Shown: positions 9,172-62,858 of the stretch, piece after piece
Layout of the letters: each line of letters opens with the position of its first letter
Numbering within the stretch: the first letter of the stretch is position 1
DNA from: Haliotis cracherodii
Lineage: Eukaryota
Direction of reading: 5' to 3'
DNA length: 64,000 nt
Assembly: GCF_022045235.1 (NCBI RefSeq)
Contig: NW_027266308.1
Location: 15,624,001-15,688,000, forward strand
Notes under the pieces: generated by a model
What the model was told of the DNA's origin: nothing
Database searches by the model: none
What the model saw: only the letters and a program-made list of their open reading frames with translations
Position numbers and translations under genes: made by a program

Positions 9172-10114
9172 TTAATAATTTGAAAATGAGCCACTTCTGC
9201 GTCTGAAAATCTTCTTGATAATGTTTGTGTTCTTTTTCCTGAACTTGAGAGCGGAGAAGACGACATGCTGAAAGACCTCCTTCAAACCCTTGTGGTCGCG
9301 AGCGGAGCACTCCACATAGCAGTCAGCACCAATGTCCTTGGCCAACTGGAAACCCTCGTCCGTGGAGACCTCGCTGTCTTCATTCCCGACTCGGAGGTCT
9401 ATCTTGGTGCCCACGAGGATGACCGGTCTCTTCTGTTTGGTGTGTTTGGAGTGTCTCTTCAGTTCAGGCATCCACACGTCATTGATGCTGGCCAACGTTT
9501 CCCGGTCACAGGTGGAGAAACAGAGGACCAGGACTTCACTTTCCTGATAGGAGAATGCTCTTAGACTCTCAAAACGTTTCTGGAAAGGGAAAGAAGGAAC
9601 CATAAGTACTTTGTAATGTAGAACAATGCAGAAAAAATGTAAATCTTAAAATTGTTCATAAACAATGCAGAAAATATAGACAATCAAAATGATTAATAGA
9701 AACTGTTAGAGATCTAACTATGGATATAGAAAGAGGAAAATATCAGTTCTATGAAAGGGTAGTTAATCACAAGCCTATTTTTGCATTAAGAAAAAGTATA
9801 ATTCAAACAGGAAATAGATGGAAATCTATAAAAATTAATAAACATTTTGTAAATCGGGTGTCTCATCCCGTTACGCTAAAATCTAACTTGCTACATACCT
9901 CGGCTGAGTTGTCGAACATGCTGATGACAAACTCCTCTCCAGCGACATTCAGAGGAACGACATAGTTGTCAAACACTGTGGCTTCATAATTATCCTTGAA
10001 GGACTTCTCAGCATAGCTCTCGGAGATGCTGGTCTTTCCGACCATCCCATCTCCCATGATGGCACAGTACAGGAATTTCTTATCGAGGTTCTTCATAGTA
10101 ATTCCTCCCTTCAT
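9172..10114 (-). CDS. Atypical Rho-family GTPase paralogue A (Cdc42/RhoJ/RhoQ-like), 207 aa, 2 exons
   Basis: Exon1 10114-9899 (72 codons; donor GAG|GTATGT), phase-0 intron 9898-9580 (319 nt; acceptor ttccctttccAG), exon2 9579-9172. G1 GDGMVGKTS, switch I YEATVFDNY, G3 DNSAE, G4 TKID, G5 CSAR; ends RRRSGSFSNY. AATAAA at 8827-8822. Confidence 0.93.
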
Positions 10115-13361: not shown

Positions 13362-14157
13362 TTAATAATTTGAAAATGAGCCACTTTTGCGTCTGAATAT
13401 CTTCTTGATAATGTTTGTGTTCTTTTTCCTGAACTTGAGAGCGGAGAAGACGACATGCTGAAAGACCTCCTTCAAACCCTTGTGGTCGCGAGCGGAGCAC
13501 TCCACATAGCAGTCAGCACCAATGTCCTTGGCCAACTGGAAACCCTCGTCCGTGGAGACCTCGCTGTCTGCAGTCCCGACTCGGAGGTCTATCTTGGTGC
13601 CCACGAGGATGACCGGTCTCTTCTGTTTGGTGTGTTTGGAGTGTCTCTTCAGTTCAGGCATCCACACGTCATTGATGCTGGCCAACGTTTCCCGGTCACA
13701 GGTGGAGAAACAGAGGACCAGGACTTCACTTTCCCGATAGGAGAATGCTCTTAGACTCTCAAAACGTTTCTGGAAAGGGAAAGAAGGAACCATAAGTACT
13801 TTGTAATGTAGAACAATGCAGAAAAAATGTAAGTCTTAATCAAAACAAGAAAATATCCAAATTAGTAGATATCGGTAACCATTGATTAAATGTGATGTCT
13901 CATCCCGTTACATGTACACTGATATGGATCTTGCTACATACCTCGGCTGAGTTGTCGAACATGCTGATAACAAACTCCTCTCCGGCAACTTGCAGTGGAA
14001 CGACATAGTTGTCAAACACTGTGGCTTCATAATTCTCCTTGAAGGACTTCTCAGCATAGCTCTCGGAGATGCTGGTCTTTCCGACCATCCCATCTCCCAT
14101 GATGGCACAGTACACGAATTTCTTATCGAGATTCTTCATAGTATTTCCTCCCTTCAT
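13362..14157 (-). CDS. Atypical Rho-family GTPase paralogue B, 207 aa, 2 exons
   Basis: Exon1 14157-13942, intron 13941-13770 (172 nt, GT..AG), exon2 13769-13362. G3 DNSAE, G4 TKID; ends RRKSGSFSNY. AATAAA at 13000-12995. Tandem paralogue of A with alignable UTRs and promoter. Confidence 0.93.
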
Positions 14158-27601: not shown

Positions 27602-28325
27602 ATAGTGCATAAACGCATTTAAAAAATTGAAATTCACTTGTAGATTCTTACCAAATGAATGAATCATAAAGGCGATATATAGGTTTCATAGGGCAGCTGT
27701 TGATATAACTGAATTACTTTCAGCTGAACAGTTTTCTTTTTCTTTTTAAAAACATCGTACATTTATCCTAAAAATGACATAGAGGGCAGACATAAAGCCG
27801 AGGATGACATATGAGATACCGACAAATTCACTGAAGAGCCTTGCAAATAATATACATGAGATGTTTTAATTTATTTTCTTCCAGATGTGTCAGTCTCACA
27901 TAATCAAATCCCTAGGATTAAAAAGAAAATTCTGATCGTTATACAAAAAAAGTAACTGTGAACATATATCCAACTCTTGATCTAACTGCCTGTGAAATTG
28001 TCACTTAGAAGAAAGAGACAGACGAATACTTTCCTTTCTAATAAAGTACAGGATTTAAGTTGCAATTAGCTCAGCTTTTAGACTGAAATTCATTTCGTGC
28101 TTCTACCATCCATATCGTTTCAGACAATCAAAATAATCCAGCCAAGCTAATCCATTTATTTGATTAATCCAATCCGACGTATTTGCCTAAATACAAATAC
28201 TCTAATTAGACAACTACTGATCATTGTCTGTTGATTTACAAACGAGACAGCTCAAGACGGTCATCTCAGACTTTGACACCGGGGAGAGCGCATGATACTT
28301 GCCTAATTACAGGTTTAGTCTTCTG

Positions 28326-28347
28326 ATTGGCCGGTGATATCTTTATA
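28326..28347 (+). promoter_or_regulatory. Core promoter of gene C (ATTGG-N11-TTTATA)
   Basis: ATTGG 28326-28330, CCGGTGATATC, TTTATA 28342-28347. The same motif precedes D at 33275-33296. Confidence 0.65.
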
Positions 28348-28413
28348 TTCAGACGCCCACAATGTACCAACAGAAAACGATTTGCATGTTTGAAACGATA
28401 CATTTGCATAAAC

Positions 28414-29313
28414 ATGAAGGGATGGAACAAACATATGAAGAATCTTGATGAGAAGGTCGTGTACTGTGCCATCATGGGAGATGAGATGGTCGAAAAGACC
28501 AGCATCTCCGAGAGCTATGCTGAGAAGTCTTTCAAGGAGAATTATGAAGCCACAGTGTTTGACAACTATGTCGTTCCCCTGCACGTAGCCGGAAAGGAGT
28601 TTGTCATCAGCATGTTTGACACAGCAGGAAAGGTATGTTTATTTAGATGTTACATTCAGTAATACTACTTTGTGAATTTCGTGTTAACACTGAGAATAGA
28701 ACCAGTTGCAATATTGACGAAAATTGTTTATAAGATGTGTATGGATAAGCGTGGATTATGTTTAGCTTCAGAAAAGTATCGCATCAAACATTACATTCTG
28801 AATTTAATTGAAGTGTTTCTATCACTATTTAGGTGGCATATATGCGTTTTTGTTGGTTCTATTTACTATACATCGTGTACTGATCTATCCTTCTTACGTT
28901 TACAGAAACGTTTTGAGAGCCTAAGAATGTTCTCCTACAAGGAAAGTGAAGTCCTGCTTTTGTGTTTTTCTACCTTTGACCGGAAGACATTTCACACCGT
29001 CAATGACCTGTGGATGCCTGAACTAAAGAGACACTCCAAACAACACAAACAGAAGAGACCTGTCATCCTCGTGGGCACGAAGATAGACCTCCGAGTCGGA
29101 AATGAAAGAATTGGGGTCAGCACGGACGAGGGTGTCCAGTTGGCCAAGGACATCGGTGCTGACTGCTATGTGGAGTGCTCGGCTAACGACCACAAGGGCT
29201 TGAAGGAGGTCTTTCAGCATGTTGTCTTCTCTGCTCTCAAATTCAGAAATAAGAGAACCAACATTATCCAGAAGATGTTCAGACGCAGAAGTGCCTCTTT
29301 TGTAAATTACTAG
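28414..29313 (+). CDS. Atypical Rho-family GTPase paralogue C, 208 aa, 2 exons (damaged P-loop)
   Basis: Exon1 28414-28632 (AAG|GTATGT), intron 28633-28905 (273 nt), exon2 28906-29313. G1 GDEMVEKT, G3 DTAGK, G4 TKID, G5 CSAN; ends RRRSASFVNY. AATAAA 29595-29600. Confidence 0.88.
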
Positions 29314-32300
29314 ATTCAACAGGCTTTCATGTGATGATGGAAAATTACAAAGTGCAAGCATTATGAGATATCTGAATATTGTTGCAATATGAATGTCAAA
29401 TGAAAATTACATCAACAATGGAGGGAGGGAGATGTTCCACTTTACTTATACATGACATTCATACAAAGGCTTTTCATACATACATTTTATTGAATGACCG
29501 ATTAGTGCTATTTACAACCACGTCCTATGTCTGTTATAAGTGACAATCGTTCTTTCATATATGTTACTGTTTACTGTTATTCGTATTTGCCTTCAATAAA
29601 CTATGTATGTGATATATGATCATCAGAGTCTTGTCGATATGTCTCCTCAATACGATACGTGTTTTGAGCTAAGTCAGCTCTCAATAAACACGAGAAAACG
29701 TTTTCCATAATCATAACAAATATCCATTGTACAGCGTGTATCAAAAGTATGTGTTTATGAATCATTATCAAAAGTGATGATACGAAAAGGCAAGCGTATC
29801 ATGTCCCAACCGGAGATACTCGTCAAATACACAGTTGAAAGAGCATGCTCGAGTATACCTCGAAGGATGTGGAATGTAGACAACAAAGACTGCAGCTGCT
29901 GGAATATTGCTCGACATATGTGGAAATTTGACTCTTGCACAGTCATCCCTCTTGTCGTATGGTCTTGTGGGTTGTTTGTTTTTTCACTCTGAATCTTTAT
30001 GCATAAATCTCTATTTTAAGTTCAGGTGGGTAAATAAGAGGAGGGGATTTAGCTATTAGATCACGAATATGCCTAAAGCTTAAGTTAAACTTCTGGTCCT
30101 AATTCCCACGCAAATGAAACGCAGTTTCGTTTCTACGAGAATACGTTTAAAAGGACTAAACAGTTTTACACGAATGTCTCTTTCGACTGATTTACGTGTA
30201 TGAAAATATATGTCCACACATCATTGACTCTTTTATGTACACTAAAACAGACTGGGAAGATTTAAAAATAAAGCCAAAATAGTATGTTACCGATTTGGAT
30301 TCAATACAGATTTGTCACGGTCAGTTTTGTTAAGGATTTGGAGGCTGGTAGTGTTTATTCGAGGACCAAGTGAACAGTGACCTCGACTTTAATTCTCGCT
30401 ATGTATTTTGATTAGTTCCGTAAGACAAATACCTTAACTGCCCTTTATTGTGCTAAATGTTAGCCTTGAAACAAGAATTCGATTTCCTATACGTGCTGGG
30501 GCATGAGTTCATGTCTCAGCAATTCTGCTGCTTGAAGAAACGTTTCACGTTATATGTTTCTGTCTCTTAAATATAATCTGAAACTCGCGATATTGTGATA
30601 ATGTTTGGATTGAATGAATGAGTGGCTCTTTGAGTACATGTAAATCATCGAAGTTCGGGAAGCATGCACCTATGTATAAAACTTCACTGTCAATGGCTAC
30701 GACGTAGGTGTACAGTAATGAAGGTGCGTGTCAAGGTGAGTTATTTTAGCAATTACCTATAGACTGTCACGCACGTTGTGACATCTATTAGATCACTGGC
30801 CATCTACCACAAATTGCCAAAAGGATATACATGCAATCTATCCAAGGGAGTCGGCAACGAATATTAATACAGGCTCTGCACAATGTATGTTGTGATGTTT
30901 TGCTATTCAAACTATTTTGAATTAATATCTTCAAACAACATACGTTTCACCAACAGTAAAGCAAATGTGTTACACAACAAGAAGAGCAATACCTCTTTTC
31001 TGTTTGAAACAACACAAAGATGAATCCTACGGTCAGACAGCCCATTTATAAAAGTTTTATTGGCCAACTGTATAGTGACCTGAAACCCACTATGTCGCAC
31101 TCGCTGTTCCTGCCGAACAGCTTACAACCATACTAACTCAATCACAGAGCTATATTTACTGGTATTGTCTCACTTTGATAGACATTTCTCGTCTTCCATT
31201 TTTACCAACTTTTGAAAGTCCATCAACGACTTCAATGAACATGTCTCGTCTACCTAAACGGAAAGGAGATGGTAATAATAATGACAATATTCTGTTACAC
31301 CGCAGAAAACAACCAGTGCATTGCAACGACAACGAGGCTATTTGACGGGATGTGATTGGCTTCTGTCCATTGCCGCCTTATCCTTTCATTGTAAAACAAC
31401 AACGAATCCATTCACTTCTATTAATCCAATCAGACGTGTTTCCTTAGCCACTCTGAATCAGACAGCTACAAAATCAACAACGCTAATTCGAAGTGTTTAT
31501 TTGCATACATTTCCACTAATGAGCATGACACAACTAATATGTAAACATATACCAGGATTAAATTAGACATAGCTGCTTTAAAGATAAGTGTGCAAATGCA
31601 TGAAGAGACACAATATCAGCAACCATTTCCCTTAACCTACATATGTCTGGAAAGAAAGCCTCTAAAACTTCTAATCCGTGACTATGTAATGTTTTCGAAA
31701 ATACATAATTGCTGGGGTAAATAATATAACAAATAGATGGTGTGTAGAGGTAGAGTCAGACAATAATTTCAATAATTCGAACTCAAACAAACTTCATTTC
31801 ACTTGAGGTCATGTCATGGCAACCGAAGGTATAAGTATAAATTAATATAAGAAATCTTTGCAAACTCGATGGTAAAACACTGTGCATAAACGCATGTAGT
31901 ACATTATACATTTTTACTCATCATTCACGAGTACATTCTTACCAAATCCTACAGGAGATAAAATAATTAAGTTAGATTTACATCAGCAAGTGTTGATAAT
32001 ATTTACATACTTTCAACTTTACAACTTTCTTATTATTTAAAACATCCTACATATATACTAAAACTAATACACAGATCAAACATAATGCCAAATATGGTAC
32101 ATGCGATAGCGACAAATTCGCTGAAGCGCTGGCAAATAAGGTGCGGGAAATGCTTTTTACTTTCTTCCAGATTTTGTTCGTTCCAGACCAACACAATTAA
32201 TGCTTTACGTTTGAGTAGACAATATAATTGGATCTTTTTTAAATAAATAAGCGTGAGCATACATACGAAACCATCTTTAAATCTCTATGAAATTACTTTG

Positions 32301-33141: not shown

Positions 33142-36100
33142 ACAAATACTCTAATTAGACAGCTACTGATCATTGTCTGTTGATTTACAAACGAGACAGC
33201 TCAAGACGGTCATCTCAGACTTTGACACCGGGGAGAGCGCATGATACTTGCCTAATTACAGGTTTAGTCTTCTGATTGGCCGGTGATATCTTTATATTCA
33301 GACGCCCACAAAGTACCAACAGAAAACGCGTTGCACGTTTGAAACGATACATTTGCATAAACATGAAGGGATGGAACAAACATATGAAGAACCTTGATGA
33401 GAAGGTCGTGTACTGTGCCATCATGGGAGATGAGATGGTCGGAAAGACCAGCATCTCCGAGAGCTATGCTAAGAAATCTTTCAAGGAGAATTATGAAGCC
33501 ACAGTGTTCGACAACTATGTCGTTCCCCTGCACGTAGCCGGAAAGGAGTTTGTCATCAGCATGTTTGACACAGCAGGAAAGGTATGTTTATTTAGATGTT
33601 ACATTCAGTAATACTACTTTGTGAATTTCGTGTTAACACTGAGAATAGAACCAGTTGCAATATTGACGAAAATTGTTTATAAGATGTGTATGGATAAGCG
33701 TGGATTATGTTTAGCTTCAGAAAAGTATCGCATCAAACATTACATTCTGAATTTAATTGAAGTGTTTCTATCACTATTTAGGTGGCATATATGCGTTTTT
33801 GTTGGTTCTATTTACTATACATCGTGTACTGATCTATCCTTGTTACGTTTACAGAAACATTTTGAGAGCCTAAGAATGTTCTCCTACAAGGAAAGTGAAG
33901 TCCTGCTTTTGTGTTTTTCTACCTGTGACCGGAAGACATTTCACACCGTCAATGACCTATGGATGCCTGAACTAAAGAGACACTCCAAACAACACAAACA
34001 GAAGAGACCTGTCATCCTCGTGGGCACGAAGATAGACCTCCGAGTCGGAAATGAAAGAATTGGGGTCAGCACGGACGAGGGTGTCCAGTTGGCCAAGGAC
34101 ATCGGTGCTGACTGCTATGTGGAGTGCTCGGCTAACGACCACAAGGGCTTGAAGGAGGTCTTTCAGCATGTTGTCTTCTCTGCTCTCAAATTCAGAAATA
34201 AGAGAACCAACATTATCCAGAAGATGTTCAGACGCAGAAGTGCCTCTTTTGTAAATTACTAGATTCAACAGGCTTTCATGTGATGATGGAAAATTACAAA
34301 GTGCAAGCATTATGAGATATCTGAATATATTGTTGCAATATGAATGTCAAATGAAAATTACATCAACAATGAAGGGAGGGAGATGTTCCACTTTACTTAT
34401 ACATGACATTTATACAAAGGCTTTTCATACATACATTTTATTGAATGACCGATTAGTGCTATTTACAACCACGTCCTATGTCTGTTATTAGTGACAATCG
34501 TTCTTTCATATATGTTACTGTTTACTGTTATTCGTAATTGCCTTCAATAAACTATGTATGTGATATATGATCATCAGAGTCTTGTCGATATGTCTCCTCA
34601 ATACGATACGTGTTTTGAGCTAAGTCAGCTCTCAATAAACACGAGAAAACGTTTTCCATAATCATAACAAATATCTGCTAAAAGCAGAGTCCATTGTACA
34701 GCGTGTATCAAAAGTATGTGTTTATGAATCATTATCAAAAGTGATGATACGAAAAGACAAGCGTATCATGCCCCAACCGGAGATACTCGTCAAATACACA
34801 GTTGAAAGAGCGTGCTCGAGTATACCTCGAAGGATGTGGAATGTAGACAACAAAGACTGCAGCTGCTGGAATATTGCTCGACATATGTGGAAATTTGACT
34901 CTTGCACAGTCATCCCTCTTGTCGTATGGTCTTGTGGGTTGTTTGTTTTTTCACTCTGAATCTTTATGCATAAATCTCTATTTTAAGTTCAGGTGGGTAA
35001 ATAAGAGGAGGGGATTTAGCTATTAGATCACGAATATGCCTAAAGCTTAAGTTAAACTTCTGGTCCTAATTCCCACGCAAATGAAACGCAGTTTCGTTTC
35101 TACGAGAATACGTTTAAAAGGACTAAACAGTTTTACACGAATGTCTCTTTCGACTGATTTACGAGTATGAAAATATATGTCCACACATCATTGACTCTTT
35201 TATGTACACTAAAACAGACTGGGAAGATTTAAAAATAAAGCCAAAATAGTATGTTACCGATTTGGATTCAACACAGATTTGTCACGGTCAGTTTTGTTAA
35301 GGATTTGGAGGCTGGTAGTGTTTATTCGAGGACCAAGTGAACAGTGACCTCGACTTTAATTCTCGCTATGTATTTTGATTAGTTCCGTAAGACAAATACC
35401 TTAACTGCCCTTTATTGTGCTAAATGTTAGCCTTGAAACAAGAATTCGATTTCCTATACGTGCTGGGGCATGAGTTCATGTCTCAGCAATTCTGCTGCTT
35501 GAAGAAACGTTTCACGTTATATGTTTCTGTCTCTTAAATATAATCTGAAACTCGCGATGTTGTGATAATGTTTGGATTGAATGAATGAGTGGCTCTTTGA
35601 GTACATGTAAATCATCGAAGTTCGGGAAGCATGCACCTATGTATAAAACTTCACTGTCAATGGCTACGACGTAGGTGTACAGTAATGAAGGTGCGTGTCA
35701 AGGTGAGTTATTTTAGCAATTACCTATAGACTGTCACGCACGTTGTGACATCTATTAGATCACTGGCCGTCTACCACAAATTGCCAACAGGATATACATG
35801 CAATCTATCCAAGGGAGTCGGCAACGAATATTAATACAGGCTCTGCACAATATATGTTGTGATGTTTTGCTATTCAAACTATTTTGAATTAATATCTTCA
35901 AACAACATACGTTTCACCAACAGTAAAGCAAATGTGTTACACAACAAGAAGAGCAATACCTCTTTTCTGTTTGAAACAACACAAAGATGAATCCTACGGT
36001 CAGACAGCCCATTTATAAAAGTTTTATTGGCCAACTGTATAGTGACCTGAAACCCACTATGTCGCACTCGCTGTTCCTGCCGAACAGCTTACAACCATAC

Positions 36101-36756
36101 TAACTCAATCACAGAGCTATATTTACTGGTATTGTCTCACTTTGATAGACATTTCTCGTCTTCCATTTTTACCAACTTTTGAAAGTCCACCAACGACTTC
36201 AATGAACATGTCTCGTCTACCTAAACGGAAAGGAGATGGTAATAATAATGACAATATTCTGTTACACCGCAGAAAACAACCAGTGCATTGCAACGACAAC
36301 GAGGCTATTTGACGGGATGTGATTGGCTTCTGTCCATTGCCGCCTTATCCTTTCATTGTAAAACAACAACAAATCCATTCACTTCTATTAATCCAACCAG
36401 ACGTGTTTCCTTAGCCACTCTGAATCAGACAGCTACAAAATCAACAACGCTAATTCGAAGTGTTTATTTGCATACATTTCCACTAATGAGCATGATACAA
36501 CTAATATGTAAACATATACCAGGATTAAATTAGACATAGCTGCTTTAAAGATAAGTGTGCAAATACATGAAGAGACACAATATCAGCAACCATTTCCCTT
36601 AACCTACATATGTCTGGAAAGAAAGCCTCTAAAACTTCTAATCCGTGACTATGTAATGTTTTCGAAAATACATAATTGCTGGGGTAAATAATATAACAAA
36701 TAGATGGTGTGTAGAGGTAGAGTCAGACAATAATTTCAATAATTCGAACTCAAACA
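33142..36756 (+). repeat. Segmental duplication, copy 2 (contains gene D)
   Basis: Nearly identical to 28193-31789; ends abruptly at a LINE junction at 36757. Confidence 0.95.
33363..34262 (+). CDS. Atypical Rho-family GTPase paralogue D, 208 aa, 2 exons
   Basis: Exon1 33363-33581, intron 33582-33854, exon2 33855-34262. G1 GDEMVGKT, G3 DTAGK. AATAAA 34546-34551. Confidence 0.91.
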
Positions 36757-38849: not shown

Positions 38850-40049
38850 CAAAATACATAATGGCAGTATTGATAGTTATGAATAGTCAAGCGTTTATCC
38901 CCAAACAAATATTTTAATTAGACAGCTACTGACCATTATCTGTTGATTACAAACGAGACAGCTCAAGACGGTCATCTCAGACTTTGACACCGGTGAGAGC
39001 ACGTGAAACGTACCTAATTACAGATTTACCCTTCTGATTAGCTCACAATATCTTTATATTCAGACGCCCACAATGTCCCAACAGAAAGACCTGTTAAGAT
39101 CCCGTTAGGGAATAGGTGTTCAGTAACCCATGCTTGCCTATGGCGACTATGCTTGTCGTAAGAGGCGACTAACGGGATCGGGTGGTCAGGCACGCTGACT
39201 TGGTACATGTCATCGTATCCCACTTGCGTGGATCGATGCTCATGATATCCATCAGTGGACTGTCTGGTCCGGACTCGATTATTTACAGAACGTCGTCATA
39301 TTGCTGGAATATTGTGCGGCGTTAAACAACAAACATCGCATACGATGCCTAATTGACTCTTCCATCCTCATCTAATACTTTGAGCATAACATTACTTTGG
39401 AAGTGGGATCGACTTGCATTCATTCGCAAAAACTTAATTCAGTTATTCAGTACTTAACTGCCCTTATTTGCGTATTTATGACCATACAATGACGCCTTGT
39501 TTCCCCGAGAATAGCTTTAATTGCTGCAAATCTTCCCACACCAAGAAAACATTTGAAATAGCACGCTTGTATATATTTGTGTCTTGATATTAATATTTTA
39601 TATTTCAGAATCATACATCAATATTGGATCGATTTCACCGTCAAATATGTTACAAGCAGTCGAGAAATCTATAAATCTGGTTATTAATGAACAAATGAAA
39701 AACTGGCCCCATTGCCTGGCGTACTTGCATGGCAAGAGGTTTATGTATATAATTATCGTACTGATCGATCCTTTTTACAAGGAAACAAACAATCCAAAGA
39801 GAAGAAACCGGTCATCCCCGTTGGCACCAAGATAAACCTCCGAGATGGGAATCAAGGAAGCGAGGTCATCATGAACGCGGGTTACTAACTGGCTAAGGAT
39901 ATTGGTGCTGACTGCTATGTTGAGTGCTCGGTTCGCGACCACACGGGTTTAGAGAAGAGTTTTAGGCATGTCGTCTTCTCCACTCTGAGAGAACCAACAT
40001 TATCAAGAAGATGTTCAGACGCAGAAGTGCCTCTTTTGCAAATATTTAG
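38850..40049 (+). pseudogene. Pseudogene of the Rho-like family (C/D type)
   Basis: Promoter 38850-39087 is homologous to D. A SINE sits at the presumptive 5' UTR and exon 1 is absent. Exon-2 remnant about 39775-40049 reads KKPVIPVGTKINLRDGNQGSEVIMNAGY*LAKDIGADCYVECSVRDHTGLEKSFRHVVFSTL / RTNIIKKMFRRRSASFANI*, with TAA at 39886-39888 and deletions. Confidence 0.9.
39088..39333 (+). mobile_element. SINE family S1 inserted just downstream of the pseudogene TATA
   Basis: S1 consensus begins right after ..gtcccaacagaaa. Confidence 0.8.
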
Positions 40050-40779
40050 ATTCAACAGTCTGTTATGTGGACAAGGAAGAGGATACACTGCAAGCGTCAT
40101 GAAATATCTGATTATTGTAGCTATGTGAATGTCAAATTAAAATCACATCAACATGGAAGATATATGTTCGAAGAGGTTTAAACCCGATTGCACAGTTACG
40201 TTGACTTGCATCATGGCTGTCACCAAGTTGAGCAAAGAACTTTCAGACGAACCATCACTGTACAAATTCGTGCAAAAGGAAGAAGATGTAACACTTAATT
40301 GATACATGACATTTATAGCAAGGCTTTTAACATGTACAAGTCCGCCCTGGTTAAAATTGGTCCGCCCTGGTTACACCGTCACTCTAGTTCTAATGCAATA
40401 TGTTTCTCAGAACGGATTTCCTCAGTGCAAAAATCCTTGGTTTTAATGCCACCCATATTATAATGCCAATGCCAATGGGCTTTTTTAGAACAAACGTTCC
40501 ATTTCACTGATTATAATGCGAATTTGTTTTAAATTTTGAGATAACATTGGCAATGTATTTCTCCTTTCTAAATAATAAAAAAAATAATGGCATTGACTTC
40601 AGTTGTTTTCAAGTTTATCCTCACACACATTGAATTATTGATTAGTGCTGTTTATATAAACAGACAAAAACCCTTTCCGTATTCATAAGAAATCTCAGCG
40701 TGTCGATTGTACTATTGCCCTCCAATAACGTTGCGCTGTTATTAATGACAATATGAATTTCATATGATACTGCTTATAC

Positions 40780-57185: not shown

Positions 57186-57207
57186 ATTGGATGAAATAAT
57201 CTATATA
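57186..57207 (+). promoter_or_regulatory. Core promoter of gene E (ATTGG-N11-TATATA)
   Basis: TTCTGATTGG ATGAAATAATC TATATA, about 57 nt before the ATG. Confidence 0.7.
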
Positions 57208-57263
57208 TGACCACCAACGTTTAAGACGGCATCAGGTGTTGATGCACAGACTACACCAGGAAC

Positions 57264-58136
57264 ATGAAAAACGTCAATATGAAGAACGATGAAGAAAAAT
57301 ACATATCCTGTGCCATCATGGGAGACGGGATGGTCGGAAAGACCAGCATCTCCGAGAGCTATGCCCAGAAATCCTTCAAGGAGAACTATGAAGCCACAGT
57401 GTTTGATAACTATGTCGTTCCACTGAATGTAGCTGAGGAGGAGTTTGTCATCAGCATGTTCGATACTGCAGGAAAGGTGAGCTGACAATAATGCCAGAAA
57501 TATGTTCACTTTTTGTTTAAAAGAGACCAGTCTAGTTTTTTGCTGTACTAATGTATGTATTATGGATCATTGACTACCTATGAGTAGCTCACTGTTGCAA
57601 TTACATGAGCTTGACAATGGCATTGTGCCACATGTATTATAGATATAATATACATTCTACTTAATTTATTACAGAACGTTTAAGCGCATACATGTATGTT
57701 CATGGATCTTGAAAAACAATAAATGTTTACCTTTTTTGTTTCATATTTCCAGAAAAACTTTGAGAATCTCCGTTCCTTCACATACCGTGAGAGTGAAGTC
57801 CTGCTTCTGTGTTTCTCCACCTGTGACCGGGAAACGTTGGCCAGCATCAATGACGTGTGGATGCCTGAACTGAAGAGACACTCCAAACACACCAAACAGA
57901 AGAGACCGGTCATCCTCGTGGGCACCCAAATTGATCTCCGTTTCGGGAATGAAGACAGCGAGGTCTCCACGGACGAGGGTGTCCAGTTGGCCAAGGACAT
58001 TGGTGCTGACTGCTATGTGGAGTGCTCTGCTCGCGACCACAAGGGTTTGAAGGAGGTCTTTCAGCATGTCGTCTTCTCCGCTCTCAAGTTCAGGAAAAAG
58101 AACACAAACATTATCAAGAAGATCTTCAGACGTTGA
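57264..58136 (+). CDS. Atypical Rho-family GTPase paralogue E, 198 aa, 2 exons
   Basis: Exon1 57264-57476 (AAG|GTGAGC), intron 57477-57752 (276 nt), exon2 57753-58136. G3 DTAGK, G4 TQID; ends KKIFRR*. AATAAA 58660-58665. Confidence 0.93.
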
Positions 58137-59102
58137 AGTGGGCAGTCGCGAACAATGTTCCTTTAAAATGACTGTATTGTCTGCGCCACTAAAGCCAATA
58201 GTGACTTTGAAATCTCAAACTGTGATATTTTGCAGATTTAGTAAACCATTGAGTGCCTTCATCAGTATGATGCCCATATGGGCAGACCAATTTGTGCTTG
58301 CGTTTTGTACTTGATGTAACTTCCTTTGATCCTATTTGTTCGACATTTTCAATCACCTTGGCAAGTTGTGATGCTGTTTATCGAATTTTGATATTAGATA
58401 TCAAAACACACTGTATTATCAAAGTTTAAGTTGCAATCAGAGACAACTTTCAGAGAAGACACCACTTATCGAAGTTTTCTGTGGTATCCATGGGAACAGG
58501 CGAGTGACGTTATTCCGTTTTCACAACGTGACTACATTTACAAGGGTCACGTGGGTATGAATTATGTTCAAGTTTATATCTCGGCATTCCAGTGCCCAGT
58601 ACCGTTTTTGTAAACAATATGCAATTTCCATTTTATACGCATTAATGTTTTATACATGAAATAAAATTGAAAGTGAAAGTAAAAGCTTCTGTCTTTATTT
58701 TAATTTGGAAGTAAGGGACAAACTGTGGTGTCTTGGTGTTGTTTCCAGGTGCATATATCCATCACCAGGTCTTAAGAGCAAAGGCAAGAGTTCCTAAATT
58801 AAAATAGTTCTTCCTTATTATTAATGATGAGGAAAATGTTTAAATATAATGCGCATTTAGTTTCTAGATAAATCACTGAGGCATTTAATATAATATATGA
58901 TTATAGATTTGGTATAGTGTATATTAATATCAATATGAACAGTTGTTTGAAATGGAAACCTAAGTGGGAACAGTTTAAAATACACTTAAATCAAATGTTT
59001 ATAGGTTGTTGGTAATTGGCAAAAGCTAACAAATCTATTGCCCAATGTAGTCATCGTTCGCTACATCGTGGTTCACTGCGGTGCTTCTTACACATAGGAA
59101 TG

Positions 59103-59275
59103 TGGAGGCGGTCGGGTAGCCTAGTGGTTAAAGCGTTCGCTCGTCGAGCCGAAGACCCGGGTTCGAATCCCGACATGGGTACAATGTGTGAAGCCCATTT
59201 CTGGTGTCCCCCGCCGTGATATTGCTTGAATATTGCTTAAAGCGGCGTAAAACCAAACTCACTCACTCACTCACT
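59103..59275 (+). mobile_element. tRNA-derived SINE family S2 with TSD
   Basis: A and B boxes, (CACT)n tail. TSD CACATAGGAATG at 59091-59102 and 59276-59287. Confidence 0.9.
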
Positions 59276-60082
59276 CACATAGGAATGAAACCATTAGTTA
59301 TTTCTGGACAGCGTTCTGATTATAATACGCAACTTTGAAGCGTTAAGTTTTTAAATATGATATAAGAATTGTGAAGCTAAGCTACGTATTGGTAGCCAAT
59401 TTCTAGTGGCGCCCGCCTTGATATTCCTTAAATATTTGGAAAGCAGCGTAAAACCCTACTCACTCATTCACTCAAATACGCATACACGATTCCTTGAGGC
59501 TATGTGATGCTCATTGCATTTCAAATGTCATCGTTTTGTTTTGACGGATGCAAATTTGCATATTTGAATGTTTTGACGATTTCTATTCAGTGTCGGTGGA
59601 CGTGCGACGTAATAAGGCGATAACTGTAACAACGACTTCCGACGTCAATAAATGACCTTGACCTGAATTGTTGTGACTGTACTAATTGATATCCAATTCA
59701 CGTCCTGGAGATGTCATTTTAAACCTGCAATTGAAATGTACTGTAAATCATAGCGATATGCGACTTCAGTCAGGAGTCAATTATGTCCGTTGTATTGACC
59801 AGCATTACAGGCAAGGATTCAAACAAGTATTAAAGGGAAAGGATTTCTTATCTACGTCTGGTCATCAACACGGAGGAGCGAATTAGCCTTCATTCGAATT
59901 AGCCTACTTTCGAGTTAGCCTACTTTCGAGTTAGCCTACGGTCGAGTTCGCCTACTAGATTATATAATGAGAAACTATTGTTGAGTGCGGCGTTAAATAA
60001 CAAAAAAAAAAAAAAAAAGAATATAAAAATATGAAAGCAGGACTGAACCAAGTGCAGTTGAACTACATGTATGCAGGTTAAC

Positions 60083-60630
60083 ATCATTCTGACGGTTAGA
60101 ACATGATGTATAAGTCAATGTCCAAAGTCACACTGACGATCTTATTATGATGTAGAGGTCAATGTCTAACATCACTCTGACGATCTTAATATGATGTAGA
60201 GGTCAATGTCTAACATCACTTTGGCGATCTTAATATGATGTAGAGGTCAATGTCTAACATCACTCTGACGATCTTAATATGATGTAGAGGTCAATGTCTA
60301 ACATCACTCTGACGATCTTGATATGATGTAGACCCGTGAAGATCCGGAGTAGAATACGTCTTCAGCAACCCTTGCTTGCCGTAAAAGGCGGCTATGCTTG
60401 TCGTGAGAGGCGACTGACGGGATCGGGTGGTCAGTCTTACTGGCATGGTTGATGCATGTTATCATTTCCCAATTGCGTGGATGGATGCTCATGATGTCAA
60501 TCACTGGATTGTTTGGTCCAGACTCGATTATTTACAAACCGCCGTCATATAGCTGGATTATTGAAGAGTGCGGCGTTAAACAACACACAAACAAACCAAT
60601 AATATGATGTAGAAGTCAATGTCCAACATG
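60083..60630. repeat. 44-bp minisatellite interrupted by an S1 SINE
   Basis: Unit CACTCTGACGATCTTAATATGATGTAGAGGTCAATGTCTAACAT, about 6 copies. Confidence 0.9.
60331..60600 (+). mobile_element. SINE family S1 with TSD
   Basis: Begins gacccgtgaagatccgg; flanked by ATATGATGTA at 60321-60330 and 60602-60611. Confidence 0.88.
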
Positions 60631-60810
60631 TCAGCGTTCAGCGAATGTGGGGGCATGTTTCATGCTGCCATATGGCAGGCCTACTGTTGTGCGGTTTCAG
60701 GAAACAAACAAACGTTTTCATTTTTATGCAAACTGTGTGAGTGTCGAGTACTGCCGGTAGAGCAGGACTTGCTGAACCAGTTCGCGAATACCTTGCTTCA
60801 TCACTAATTC

Positions 60811-60910
60811 CATCACTAGTCTGCCTGTCACGCCCAATGGAATCTGTTTCGGCTGAATATCATCACTAGTCTGCCTGTCACGCCCAATGGAATCTGTTTC
60901 GGCTGAATAT
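60811..60910. repeat. Perfect 50-bp tandem duplication
   Basis: catcactagt..ggctgaatat occurs twice. Confidence 0.95.
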
Positions 60911-61491
60911 CAAGACTGATTCTCTGTCGTTGACGTTTTATCAGTCCTGTTTGACTTTTCAGACTCTATTATGTACACGTCATACAGACTGAACATTGCA
61001 GACTGATACGTTAAACCAGACTCGCTTAGGTGTTTTCCCCGTTCAGTGTCGCGCCGCTAACAACTAACTCTGATGGAATTAGTTACTGAAGCGCCATGCA
61101 ATCACCTTGGTTGGCCACAAGACTGCGTATCTTGAGGCTGATCCATTTTGTATCAGCAGCTTCGTGTGGATGATATTCCTGAACGACAACAGCTAGTCAA
61201 TACACATGACTCAGATGATACGGACAGATTGTTTATGTCTAGTTTGCCAACTGCTCACTTATTTCCGGGATTAGAAAACAACCATGTCACTATCAAAGTT
61301 ACCGAAAAAATATATATGGTGCGAATGGAATACAATAAATCAAGCAGCAACATTTCTCGGGTATTTTAACACCTCGGCTCAAAAGGTTTATAGATCTTTA
61401 AACCGTTTGTTATTATCGTCATTAGAAATGAATGCATTACCAAAATTTCGGTGAAAGTTTTCATAAAAGACCAACAAAAGCTCTTTGAACG

Positions 61492-61642
61492 GTGGAATAG
61501 TCTTGTGTTTAAAGCATTCACTCGTCACGCCGAAGACCGGGTTCAGTTCCCTACATGTGTACAATCTGTGAAGCCAATTTCTGGTGTCCCCCGCAGTGAT
61601 ATTGCTCGAATATTGCTAAACGTGACATAAAACATTCACACA
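61492..61642 (+). mobile_element. SINE family S2 (degenerate)
   Basis: cgtcacgccgaagacc..tttctggtgtcccccgc; TSD CTTTGAACG at 61483-61491 and 61643-61651. Confidence 0.75.
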
Positions 61643-61905
61643 CTTTGAACGTCTTGAAGCAAGCTAGGATTGTATAAGTGGTTTGTACGTCGCCTGTCTT
61701 CAACGGGCAGATTAGTAGCCACGTCGCCTAACTCTAATAACAGAAGCTCCAAACAATCAGACAATGTAAACATTGTCATAACTCCCCAGACAAGTAAATA
61801 CTAATAACACCTTGTAAGATTTCCTTAAGACCATGATGATTTACATTGCGCGTGTTTCCAATACAGCAACCTTGTCCATCTGGCAGTCCCCTGGCATCGT
61901 TAAAC

Positions 61906-61964
61906 CACGTGACAACCGTGGCGTGAGTGTTCTTGCTCGTAATTGGTCAGTTCTGTCTATATAA
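61906..61964 (+). promoter_or_regulatory. Core promoter of gene F: E-box, inverted CCAAT, TATA
   Basis: CACGTG 61906-61911, ATTGG 61942-61946, 11 nt, TATATAA 61958-61964. Confidence 0.7.
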
Positions 61965-62013
61965 GCAAGTATGCTTGGCAAGAATTGGCACACGTTGACT
62001 GAACTACATTACT

Positions 62014-62858
62014 ATGAAGGGTCGCAATATGAAGGCTGATTCGCAGAAATACATATCCTGTGCCATCATGGGAGACGGGATGGTCGGAAAGACCAGCATC
62101 TCCGAAAGCTATGCCCAGAAATCCTTCAAGGAGAACTATGAAGCCACAGTGTTTGATAACTATGTCGTTCCACTGAATGTAGCTGAGGAGGAGTTTGTTA
62201 TCAGCATGTTTGACACAGCAGGAGAGGTGAGCAAAATATTTGAACGATGATCTATCGATTGGTATCTGATGTATTTTATGTATGACAATTCTTTCTTTGA
62301 AGAAACAAGATTGTGTTCGCTATTGATTCAAACTCGTTATGGAAAATGTATACTTGCTGCAGTGCTAGGCTACGACAGCATGGCTAAGATATTCTCAAAT
62401 GAAAAATAACAAAAATATTGTCAGTCGTAATGCTACAAGAGTCATACATTTACCTTTCCTTTTCTTATTTCCAGAAAAACTTTGAGAATCTCCGTTCCTT
62501 CACATACCGTGAGAGTGAAGTCCTGCTTCTGTGTTTCTCCACCTGTGACCGGGAAACGTTGGCCAGCATCAATGACGTGTGGATGCCTGAACTGAAGAGA
62601 CACTCCAAACACACCAAACAGAAGAGACCGGTCATCCTCGTGGGCACCCAAATTGATCTCCGTTTCGGGAATGAAGACAGCGAGGTCTCCACGGACGAGG
62701 GTGTCCAGTTGGCCAAGGACATTGGTGCTGACTGCTATGTGGAGTGCTCTGCTCGCGACCACAAGGGTTTGAAGGAGGTCTTTCAGCATGTCGTCTTCTC
62801 CGCTCTCAAGTTCAGGAAAAAGAACACAAACATTATCAAGCAGATCTTCAGATTGTAA
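62014..62858 (+). CDS. Atypical Rho-family GTPase paralogue F, 198 aa, 2 exons
   Basis: Exon1 62014-62226 (GAG|GTGAGC), intron 62227-62474 (248 nt), exon2 62475-62858. G3 DTAGE, G4 TQID; ends KQIFRL*. AATAAA 63456-63461. Confidence 0.93.

What the first reader, a model, noticed from the sequence alone, without database searches (positions are those of the whole stretch)
57264..62858. Exon-restricted homogenisation of E and F: 366 identical nt flanked by unalignable introns, promoters and UTRs
Seen: exon 2 of E (57753-58118) and F (62475-62840) is identical for 366 nt, including all synonymous sites. Most of exon 1 differs at only two synonymous sites. The introns (276 vs 248 nt, apart from the splice-site ends), the first 11 or so codons, the promoters and the 3' UTRs cannot be aligned by eye. 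Protein-level purifying selection cannot explain synonymous identity. Inference: an old duplication with recent or ongoing gene conversion confined to coding exons.
Basis: partly seen in the sequence, partly recalled or inferred. Interest (0 to 1): 0.7.

Follow-up and report, generated by a model that had tools for sequence, protein, structure and literature searches.

The report
Abalone Rho genes share converted exons
Two old neighbouring copies of a Rho-like signalling gene in an abalone have a letter-for-letter identical coding stretch but unrelated-looking introns and promoters, likely because DNA patches are repeatedly copied between members of the gene cluster; this is a clean new example of a known process.

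Summary
Confirmed. E and F are identical over 375 nt (366 of exon 2 plus 9 of the acceptor). Their introns and promoters align no better than shuffles. They belong to a 140-kb cluster of eight intact Rho/Cdc42-like genes and one pseudogene. Homogenisation is cluster-wide and patchy: inverted copy Z, 69 kb away and saturated in exon 1, shares 174 identical nt of exon 2; one 71-nt block is identical in six copies. In four Haliotis species E and F group by paralogue at the protein ends (5 sites) but by species in the core (7 sites, none by paralogue), so the pair is older than about 36 Myr and has been homogenised repeatedly. Short-read contigs reproduce the identity borders, so an assembly artefact is unlikely; raw reads were too shallow to close this. 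Best reading: recurrent DNA-templated interlocus gene conversion, confined to coding sequence because only that stays similar enough to pair. This is the pattern described for yeast duplicates, and this scan noted it on other DNA (shark ferritins, abalone TRIM genes). 'Ongoing' is not shown. New locus, known process.

The parts
57264..57476 (+). Gene E coding exon 1 (71 codons). Codons 1-11 paralogue-specific; 57297-57460 near-identical to F; last codon (K71) is the Q61-equivalent position
   Evidence: spliced product equals database protein P0001
57477..57752 (+). Gene E intron, 276 nt, GT..AG; not alignable to F's intron except at its ends; orthologous intron present in organisms B and C at about 95% identity
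   Evidence: spliced form seen in contigs of run X12
57753..58136 (+). Gene E coding exon 2
57744..58118 (+). 375-nt tract identical to 62466-62840 (9 nt acceptor + 366 nt exon)
   Evidence: borders reproduced by contigs of runs X1 and X2
57810..57880 (+). 71-nt block identical in six paralogues (Z, A, B, E, F, G); encodes residues 101 and 106, which change in concert between species
57186..57209 (+). E promoter-like motifs: ATTGG (reverse CCAAT) at -78 and TATA-like box at -62; the same order is found upstream of 7 of 8 copies
   Evidence: sequence read directly; function not tested
62014..62226 (+). Gene F coding exon 1 (E71 at the Q61-equivalent position)
   Evidence: spliced product equals P0025
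62227..62474 (+). Gene F intron, 248 nt
62475..62858 (+). Gene F coding exon 2; identical to E up to 62840
9172..10114 (-). Paralogue A; exon 2 shares a 117-nt identical block and a further converted stretch with E/F
13362..14157 (-). Paralogue B (younger duplicate of A, flanks alignable)
28414..29313 (+). Paralogue C; largely escaped from exchange with E/F (longest identical block 33 nt)
33363..34262 (+). Paralogue D (recent whole-gene duplicate of C, 98.6% over 3.6 kb including intron)
38905..40328 (+). C/D-type pseudogene: promoter remnant, no exon 1, partial exon 2 with a stop; not homogenised (longest identical block 20 nt)

Best explanation
E and F are old tandem paralogues of an atypical Rho/Cdc42-like GTPase whose coding cores are identical or nearly so within each abalone species, likely because short interlocus gene-conversion tracts have been copied between cluster members again and again. 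Shown: identity and its borders; an eight-gene cluster; mosaic identity between six copies in both orientations over 140 kb; grouping by species in the core and by paralogue at the ends. Inferred mechanism: a break in one copy is repaired from a neighbouring copy's DNA. Purifying selection keeps the coding core similar enough to pair, while introns, UTRs and promoters drifted past the homology threshold long ago, so tracts stop near the edge of the conserved core. Copies that lost similarity (pseudogene, C/D, distant paralogue H) dropped out. The likely result is a set of near-identical GTPase cores under different promoters, termini and Q61-equivalent residues. E and F lack the catalytic glutamine and are predicted to be GTPase-deficient (untested).
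For: 375-nt identity against unalignable introns. Z versus E: exon-1 pS 0.84 but first 174 nt of exon 2 identical, permutation p 0.0005; G versus E: exon-2 pS 0.43 but an 83-nt identical block, p 0.001. Exon-1 and exon-2 trees conflict. Four species: 7 core sites by species, 0 by paralogue, 16 mixed; 5 terminal sites by paralogue, 0 by species. V106 is in 6 of 8 cracherodii and 6 of 7 rufescens copies but 0 of 9 rubra and 0 of 5 asinina copies; T101 and H137 are in 4 of 5 asinina copies and almost nowhere else. Synonymous site 57431 is A in both E and F of organism A (intron-anchored contigs) and G in both spliced contigs of organism D (17.8 of 17.8 depth) and in organism B (27.2 of 27.2). For a DNA template: the tract includes 9 intron bases where the E orthologues of B and C differ at 4 places in 7 nt; the UTRs and terminal codons are not homogenised; both introns persist. 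Controls: pseudogene longest identity 20 nt, paralogue H 12 nt. Precedent: PMC3924837.
Against: No long reads or deep raw reads were seen: run X21 gave at most about 1-fold depth on the exons. Logan contigs drop minority variants (an unbroken X2 contig crosses a place where A/B/G diverge), so they confirm the borders better than the interior. The Sawyer-type test on E-F alone is weak (p 0.0085 all sites, 0.24 after correction for 28 pairs; p 0.26 on silent sites), and on silent sites alone no pair passes correction. E/F labels in rubra and asinina were assigned from the protein ends, not from synteny, so the 'ends group by paralogue' count is partly circular there. In rufescens E and F differ at 6 core residues while E differs from cracherodii E at only 1, so homogenisation is intermittent. 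The direction of the acceptor change is not polarised. A single conversion within the last few Myr explains the 366 nt; continuous exchange is not shown.
Confidence: 0.88

Rival explanations
1. The donor is reverse-transcribed spliced mRNA (cDNA-mediated conversion), which would confine homogenisation to exons by mechanism rather than by homology threshold.
For: Synonymous divergence is far below intron divergence, the criterion used for fungal ribosomal-protein duplicates (PMC6993855, passages). Donor and acceptor copies lie in both orientations up to 140 kb apart. The first intron of G and H (ancestral three-exon form) is precisely absent from the seven two-exon copies. E and F orthologues are spliced in contigs of run X12 (RNA status is the tool's guess).
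Against: The identical tract includes 9 intronic bases, with similarity over 27, and these differ in E orthologues of B and C. UTRs and terminal codons, present in mRNA, are not homogenised. The last 16 nt of exon 1 carry 4 differences. The remaining intron has survived in all 8 copies. The genome search found E-like exon-2 DNA only in this cluster, 9 of 9 matches (lower bound).
Confidence: 0.06
2. Assembly collapse or read polishing made E and F look identical.
For: Raw reads were too shallow to test the interior. Polishing can homogenise near-identical paralogues within each assembly (general knowledge).
Against: Contigs of runs X1 and X2 (two studies) carry E- and F-specific flanks with 0 differences and end 30 nt past the same borders as the assembly (E 57326, 57419-57773, 58094; F 62076, 62169-62495, 62811). 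No artefact explains identical patches with Z and G inside otherwise 40-80% synonymous divergence, or lineage-wide residues such as V106 shared by two species' assemblies. It could at most hide one or two real differences.
Confidence: 0.03
3. Selection on the nucleotide sequence itself (codon use, RNA structure, regulatory element) has frozen exon 2 since the duplication.
For: Exon GC3 is high (0.68-0.69) against intron GC 0.32-0.33. One block is invariant in six copies.
Against: The sequence is not frozen: it changes between species in all copies together, at synonymous sites (57431; 58028 is T in E/F of organism A, mostly G in B, A in C) and at residues 101 and 106 inside the six-copy block. 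C/D, the pseudogene and H differ freely there.
Confidence: 0.02
4. E and F are a recent duplication whose flanks were replaced or evolved fast (birth-and-death).
For: Recent whole-gene duplicates exist in this cluster (C/D, A/B).
Against: Those recent pairs have alignable introns and flanks (272 of 273 intron bases for C/D), E/F do not. E- and F-specific promoters and introns are conserved at about 95% in organisms B and C, and both protein types occur in rubra and asinina.
Confidence: 0.01

Closest known systems
Coding-region-restricted concerted evolution of yeast whole-genome duplicates (Fawcett and Innan 2011, PMC3924837; passages read)
   Same: Old duplicates; homogenisation confined to coding sequence; no detectable non-coding homology; explained by purifying selection keeping coding regions convertible; diverged regulatory regions.
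   Different: Here a tandem animal cluster of eight genes, an intron that interrupts the tract, patchwork exchange among six copies in both orientations, and a signalling GTPase rather than high-dosage ribosomal genes.
Fungal ribosomal-protein duplicates with proposed cDNA donor (PMC6993855; passages read)
   Same: Synonymous divergence far below intron divergence; promoters diverged.
   Different: That paper favours cDNA donors; here the tract enters the intron and UTRs are not homogenised, which favours DNA.
Clustered protocadherins, domain-restricted conversion (PMC2764143; passages read)
   Same: Tandem cluster in which some coding segments have much lower synonymous divergence than others.
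   Different: Protocadherin segments lie within one large exon; here borders roughly follow exon edges.
Mosquito vitellogenin paralogues (PMC2875236; abstract and section 9 read)
   Same: Within-species paralogues closer than orthologues; short tracts in Aedes.
   Different: In Culex the tracts include introns and promoters; here they do not.
TC10/RhoQ, RhoJ, RhoU and Cdc42 branch of Rho GTPases
   Same: Best solved-structure matches are TC10 (E 8e-39) and Cdc42 (E 3e-36); GDGxVGKT P-loop, switch-I TVFDNY, GTQIDLR and CSA motifs; three-exon form of G matches the exon number of bivalve Tc10 and RhoU genes (PMC4669188, section 9).
   Different: Q61-equivalent is K or E in 6 of 8 copies; no CAAX box, basic tail instead; Rho insert shortened by 9 residues in the alignments. 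Orthology to a named subfamily was not established.

Membership tests
Concerted evolution by interlocus gene conversion | Duplication older than the species compared (orthologous loci present in each) | tested here: met
   E- and F-specific flanks in organisms B and C; both protein types in four named species; rubra/asinina labels rest on protein ends
Concerted evolution by interlocus gene conversion | Paralogues share species-specific changes in the converted region | tested here: met
   7 core residues by species, 0 by paralogue, 16 mixed; site 57431; V106, T101, H137
Concerted evolution by interlocus gene conversion | Non-random identical tracts and discordant trees along the gene | tested here: met
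   11 of 28 pairs pass p<0.05 after correction on all polymorphic sites; 0 of 28 on silent sites alone; E-F itself does not pass; exon trees conflict
Concerted evolution by interlocus gene conversion | Identity is real, not an assembly product | tested here: inconclusive
   Borders reproduced in contigs of two studies; interior not tested by raw or long reads
Concerted evolution by interlocus gene conversion | Shared polymorphism between paralogues in populations (ongoing exchange) | not testable with these tools
   No phased population data
cDNA-mediated conversion | Tracts never include intron bases | tested here: not met
   9 intronic bases inside the identical run, differing in E orthologues of B and C; polarity not fixed
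cDNA-mediated conversion | Synonymous divergence far below intron divergence | tested here: met
   also expected under DNA conversion with escaped introns
cDNA-mediated conversion | Precise intron loss | tested here: inconclusive
   First intron precisely absent from seven copies (one ancient event); second intron kept in 8 of 8
Rho-family GTPase | Ras-family G domain with closest matches to Rho members | tested here: met
   Pfam PF00071 above cut-off for both exons; TC10, Cdc42, Rac1 top matches
Classical Cdc42/TC10-type cycling Rho GTPase | Catalytic Q61 and C-terminal CAAX box | tested here: not met
   K71 (E), E71 (F); ends in KKIFRR / KQIFRL. Position-61 changes give GTPase deficiency (PMC6321241, passages)
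GTPase-deficient atypical Rho (Rnd/RhoH-like behaviour) | No GTP hydrolysis, constitutive GTP binding | not testable with these tools
   Predicted from residue 71 only; not a phylogenetic member claim

The most novel reading that the evidence does not exclude
The cluster works as a conversion-coupled family of constitutively active Rho-like switches: new amino-acid changes sweep through up to six genes across 140 kb, while selection protects each copy's promoter, termini and catalytic-site residue, and part of the copying uses RNA-derived donors in the germline (which would also explain the precise loss of the first intron).
Probability: 0.07. Interest if true: 0.7.

Novelty: new member of a known kind. 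Interest (0 to 1): 0.3.

Why it matters
The process is known, so this does not change theory. The locus is a tidy natural test bed: eight genes at graded divergence, with copies still exchanging (Z, A, B, E, F, G), copies that escaped (C/D, pseudogene, H), and dated species, which allows the homology threshold and tract length of conversion to be measured in a mollusc. It also warns that exon-based trees and dates for this family are misleading (a pair older than 36 Myr looks brand new) and that short reads cannot be assigned between E and F. As a side result, abalones carry an expanded set of Rho-like genes, most lacking the catalytic glutamine; my one search for it in print found no description.

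Tried and rejected
Raw reads of run X21: about 1 in 100 of the run was read, exon depth at most about 1, uninformative. The first read-laying run spanned repeats between E and F that swamped the tables (291 difference rows not shown); the second was narrowed to E (26 rows not shown). Site 58028 (A in 95.4 of 95.4 depth in X11) is kept as supporting only, because contigs can drop minority variants. Maximum-likelihood protein trees timed out and were replaced by FastTree on 12 of the 37 aligned proteins; P0019 (partial) was left out of the residue counts. The silent-site-only permutation test gave no pair that survives correction. Marginal local-alignment p-values for upstream regions mostly reflect the shared ATTGG/TATA motifs (inference). 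PMC1274310 (abstract only) is the opposite pattern (UTR converted, coding diverged) and was not used as the closest case. Literature searches for abalone plus conversion and Haliotis plus Cdc42 plus tandem found nothing on this cluster; subscription papers are not covered and no supplements were read. No structure or complex prediction was run, as neither bears on the claim. No earlier scan note lies near this place.
Full report
Observation. Gene E has coding exons 57264-57476 and 57753-58136; gene F has 62014-62226 and 62475-62858. The introns are 276 and 248 nt. E 57744-58118 is identical to F 62466-62840: 375 nt, of which 366 are exonic (about 77 synonymous sites) and 9 are the acceptor end of the intron. 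Exon 1 has 2 synonymous differences in 57297-57460 and 4 more differences in its last 16 nt. The first 11 codons align without gaps at 19 of 33 nt. Trimmed introns and upstream regions align no better than 100 dinucleotide shuffles (p 0.78 and 0.80); the downstream region is marginal (p 0.04).

What the genes are. Both exons match Pfam Ras PF00071 above cut-off. The closest solved structures are TC10 and Cdc42. The database holds the spliced products of all eight intact copies under the name Haliotis cracherodii, 'RhoJ-like' or 'Cdc42 homolog'. Residue 71, the last codon of exon 1, aligns with Q61 of Cdc42 and is K in E, E in F, and Q only in G and Z. Position-61 changes make Rho proteins GTPase-deficient (PMC6321241, passages), so I predict that for E and F; it is untested. 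There is no CAAX box.

The cluster. A genome search with E exon 2 gave 9 matches, all on contig C45 within 140 kb. In window coordinates they are Z (-11502 to -10273, minus strand), A, B (minus), C, D, a pseudogene, E, F, and G (126743-128409). G has an extra first intron; a distant paralogue H, 88 kb beyond G, has it too, so the seven two-exon copies descend from a copy that lost it precisely. C/D and A/B are younger pairs with alignable introns and flanks. E/F is different: coding core identical, flanks unrelated.

Mosaic identity. Z and E have synonymous divergence 0.84 in exon 1 but are identical over the first 174 nt of exon 2. G and E differ at 43% of synonymous sites in exon 2 but share an identical block of 83 nt. 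A 71-nt block (57810-57880) is identical in Z, A, B, E, F and G. A permutation test for runs of identity over 210 polymorphic sites passed correction in 11 of 28 pairs; over 54 silent sites none passed; E-F alone did not pass, because it has few differences anywhere. Trees of exon 1 and of the two halves of exon 2 disagree on the place of Z. The pseudogene (longest identity 20 nt), C/D (33-36 nt to E/F) and H (12 nt) do not share long blocks.

Other species, proteins. Searches gave the cluster's proteins from H. cracherodii, rufescens, rubra and asinina (30 proteins, aligned with 7 others). Among the eight E/F proteins, 5 terminal columns separate E from F in all species and none groups by species; in residues 12-193, 7 columns are shared by E and F within each species and differ between species, none separates E from F, and 16 are mixed. 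The core tree pairs E with F in cracherodii, rubra and asinina (support 0.86, 0.76, 0.95) but not in rufescens. V106 occurs in 6 of 8 cracherodii and 6 of 7 rufescens copies and in none of 9 rubra or 5 asinina copies; T101 and H137 occur in 4 of 5 asinina copies. Rubra Z and E share T73 and C83, a second, independent Z-E exchange. The E/F labels in rubra and asinina come from the protein ends, not synteny. Published dates are 36.4 Ma for the western/eastern Pacific split and 4.3 Ma for the eastern Pacific ancestor (bioRxiv 10.1101/2024.09.16.613283, passages). So E/F is older than about 36 Myr, and residue 58 (E in both cracherodii copies, G in both rufescens copies) points to exchange within about 4 Myr, barring ancestral polymorphism.

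Other species and individuals, DNA. In run X1 (organism A) the E- and F-specific contigs have no differences from the window and stop 30 nt inside each shared stretch, at the positions the assembly predicts; X2, from another study, does the same for E. Organisms B and C have separate E and F promoters and introns at about 95% identity. Synonymous site 57431 is A in both genes of organism A and G in both spliced contigs of organism D and in organism B (the F letter in B is inferred from contig overlap). X12 contigs skip the intron at GT..AG in E-type and F-type forms, so both orthologues appear to be spliced (RNA status is the tool's guess). Limits: these contigs drop minority variants, and the one raw-read run was too shallow.

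Mechanism. The data fit repeated interlocus gene conversion. The restriction to coding sequence is most simply a homology threshold: selection keeps the core similar, so it can still pair; introns, UTRs and promoters have escaped. This is the explanation given for yeast duplicates (PMC3924837, passages). A cDNA donor, proposed for fungal ribosomal-protein genes (PMC6993855, passages), fits less well: the identical run includes 9 intron bases, where the E orthologues of B and C differ at 4 places in 7 nt; the UTRs and terminal codons are exonic yet unconverted; the intron survives in all eight copies. The direction of that acceptor change is not polarised, and an unspliced-RNA donor is not excluded. 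Whether the differences kept at residue 71 and the termini reflect selection or just tract ends near non-homologous sequence cannot be told here. Odds: DNA-templated conversion 0.88, cDNA donor 0.06, artefact 0.03, frozen sequence 0.02, recent duplication 0.01.

Novelty. A new member of a known kind. Two literature searches found no account of this cluster; the library lacks most subscription papers. This scan's notes list the same pattern in a shark ferritin array and in abalone TRIM and EF-hand genes (unchecked AI notes, used as leads to papers). Interest 0.3.

Noticed in passing
G000:C45:15612498-15613727 (-), 10 kb before the window: Paralogue Z is a natural chimera: strongly diverged exon 1 (altered P-loop and switch I, 48% identity to E) joined to an E-like exon 2 (96%), in three species.
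   Followed up: partly
G000:C45:15750743-15752409 (+) and 15839937-15843750 (-): G and H keep a three-exon structure with a 59-nt middle exon in G; the first intron is precisely missing from the seven other copies.
   Followed up: partly
window 57474-57476, 62224-62226 and paralogues: The Q61-equivalent codon is the last codon of exon 1 and is K, E or Q depending on the copy; 6 of 8 copies lack the catalytic glutamine.
   Followed up: partly
window 38905-40328: The pseudogene's promoter (86-88%) and tail resemble C/D, but its exon-2 remnant is closer to Z/A (35-36 mismatches of 201) than to C/D (46), suggesting C/D exon 2 evolved fast or an old conversion.
   Followed up: partly
window 57186-57209, 61906-61965 and upstream of other copies: ATTGG followed about 16-18 nt later by a TATA-like box in 7 of 8 copies, with an upstream CACGTG in A, F and G, although the promoters are otherwise unalignable.
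   Followed up: no
G000:C56:21109341-21282498 and C23:2870473-2884072: Further tandem groups of small-GTPase-like exons (about 40% identity to G): at least 8 matches on C56 and 2 on C23.
   Followed up: no
window 28193-31789 and 33142-36756: Recent 3.6-kb tandem duplication (98.6%) carrying C and D; C has G24E-type change in the P-loop (GDEMVEKT) that may impair nucleotide binding.
   Followed up: no
window 59107-59271, 60331-60606, 61487-61651: Very high-copy interspersed repeats (SINE-like) and a 44-nt tandem repeat at 60079-60332 lie between E and F.
   Followed up: no
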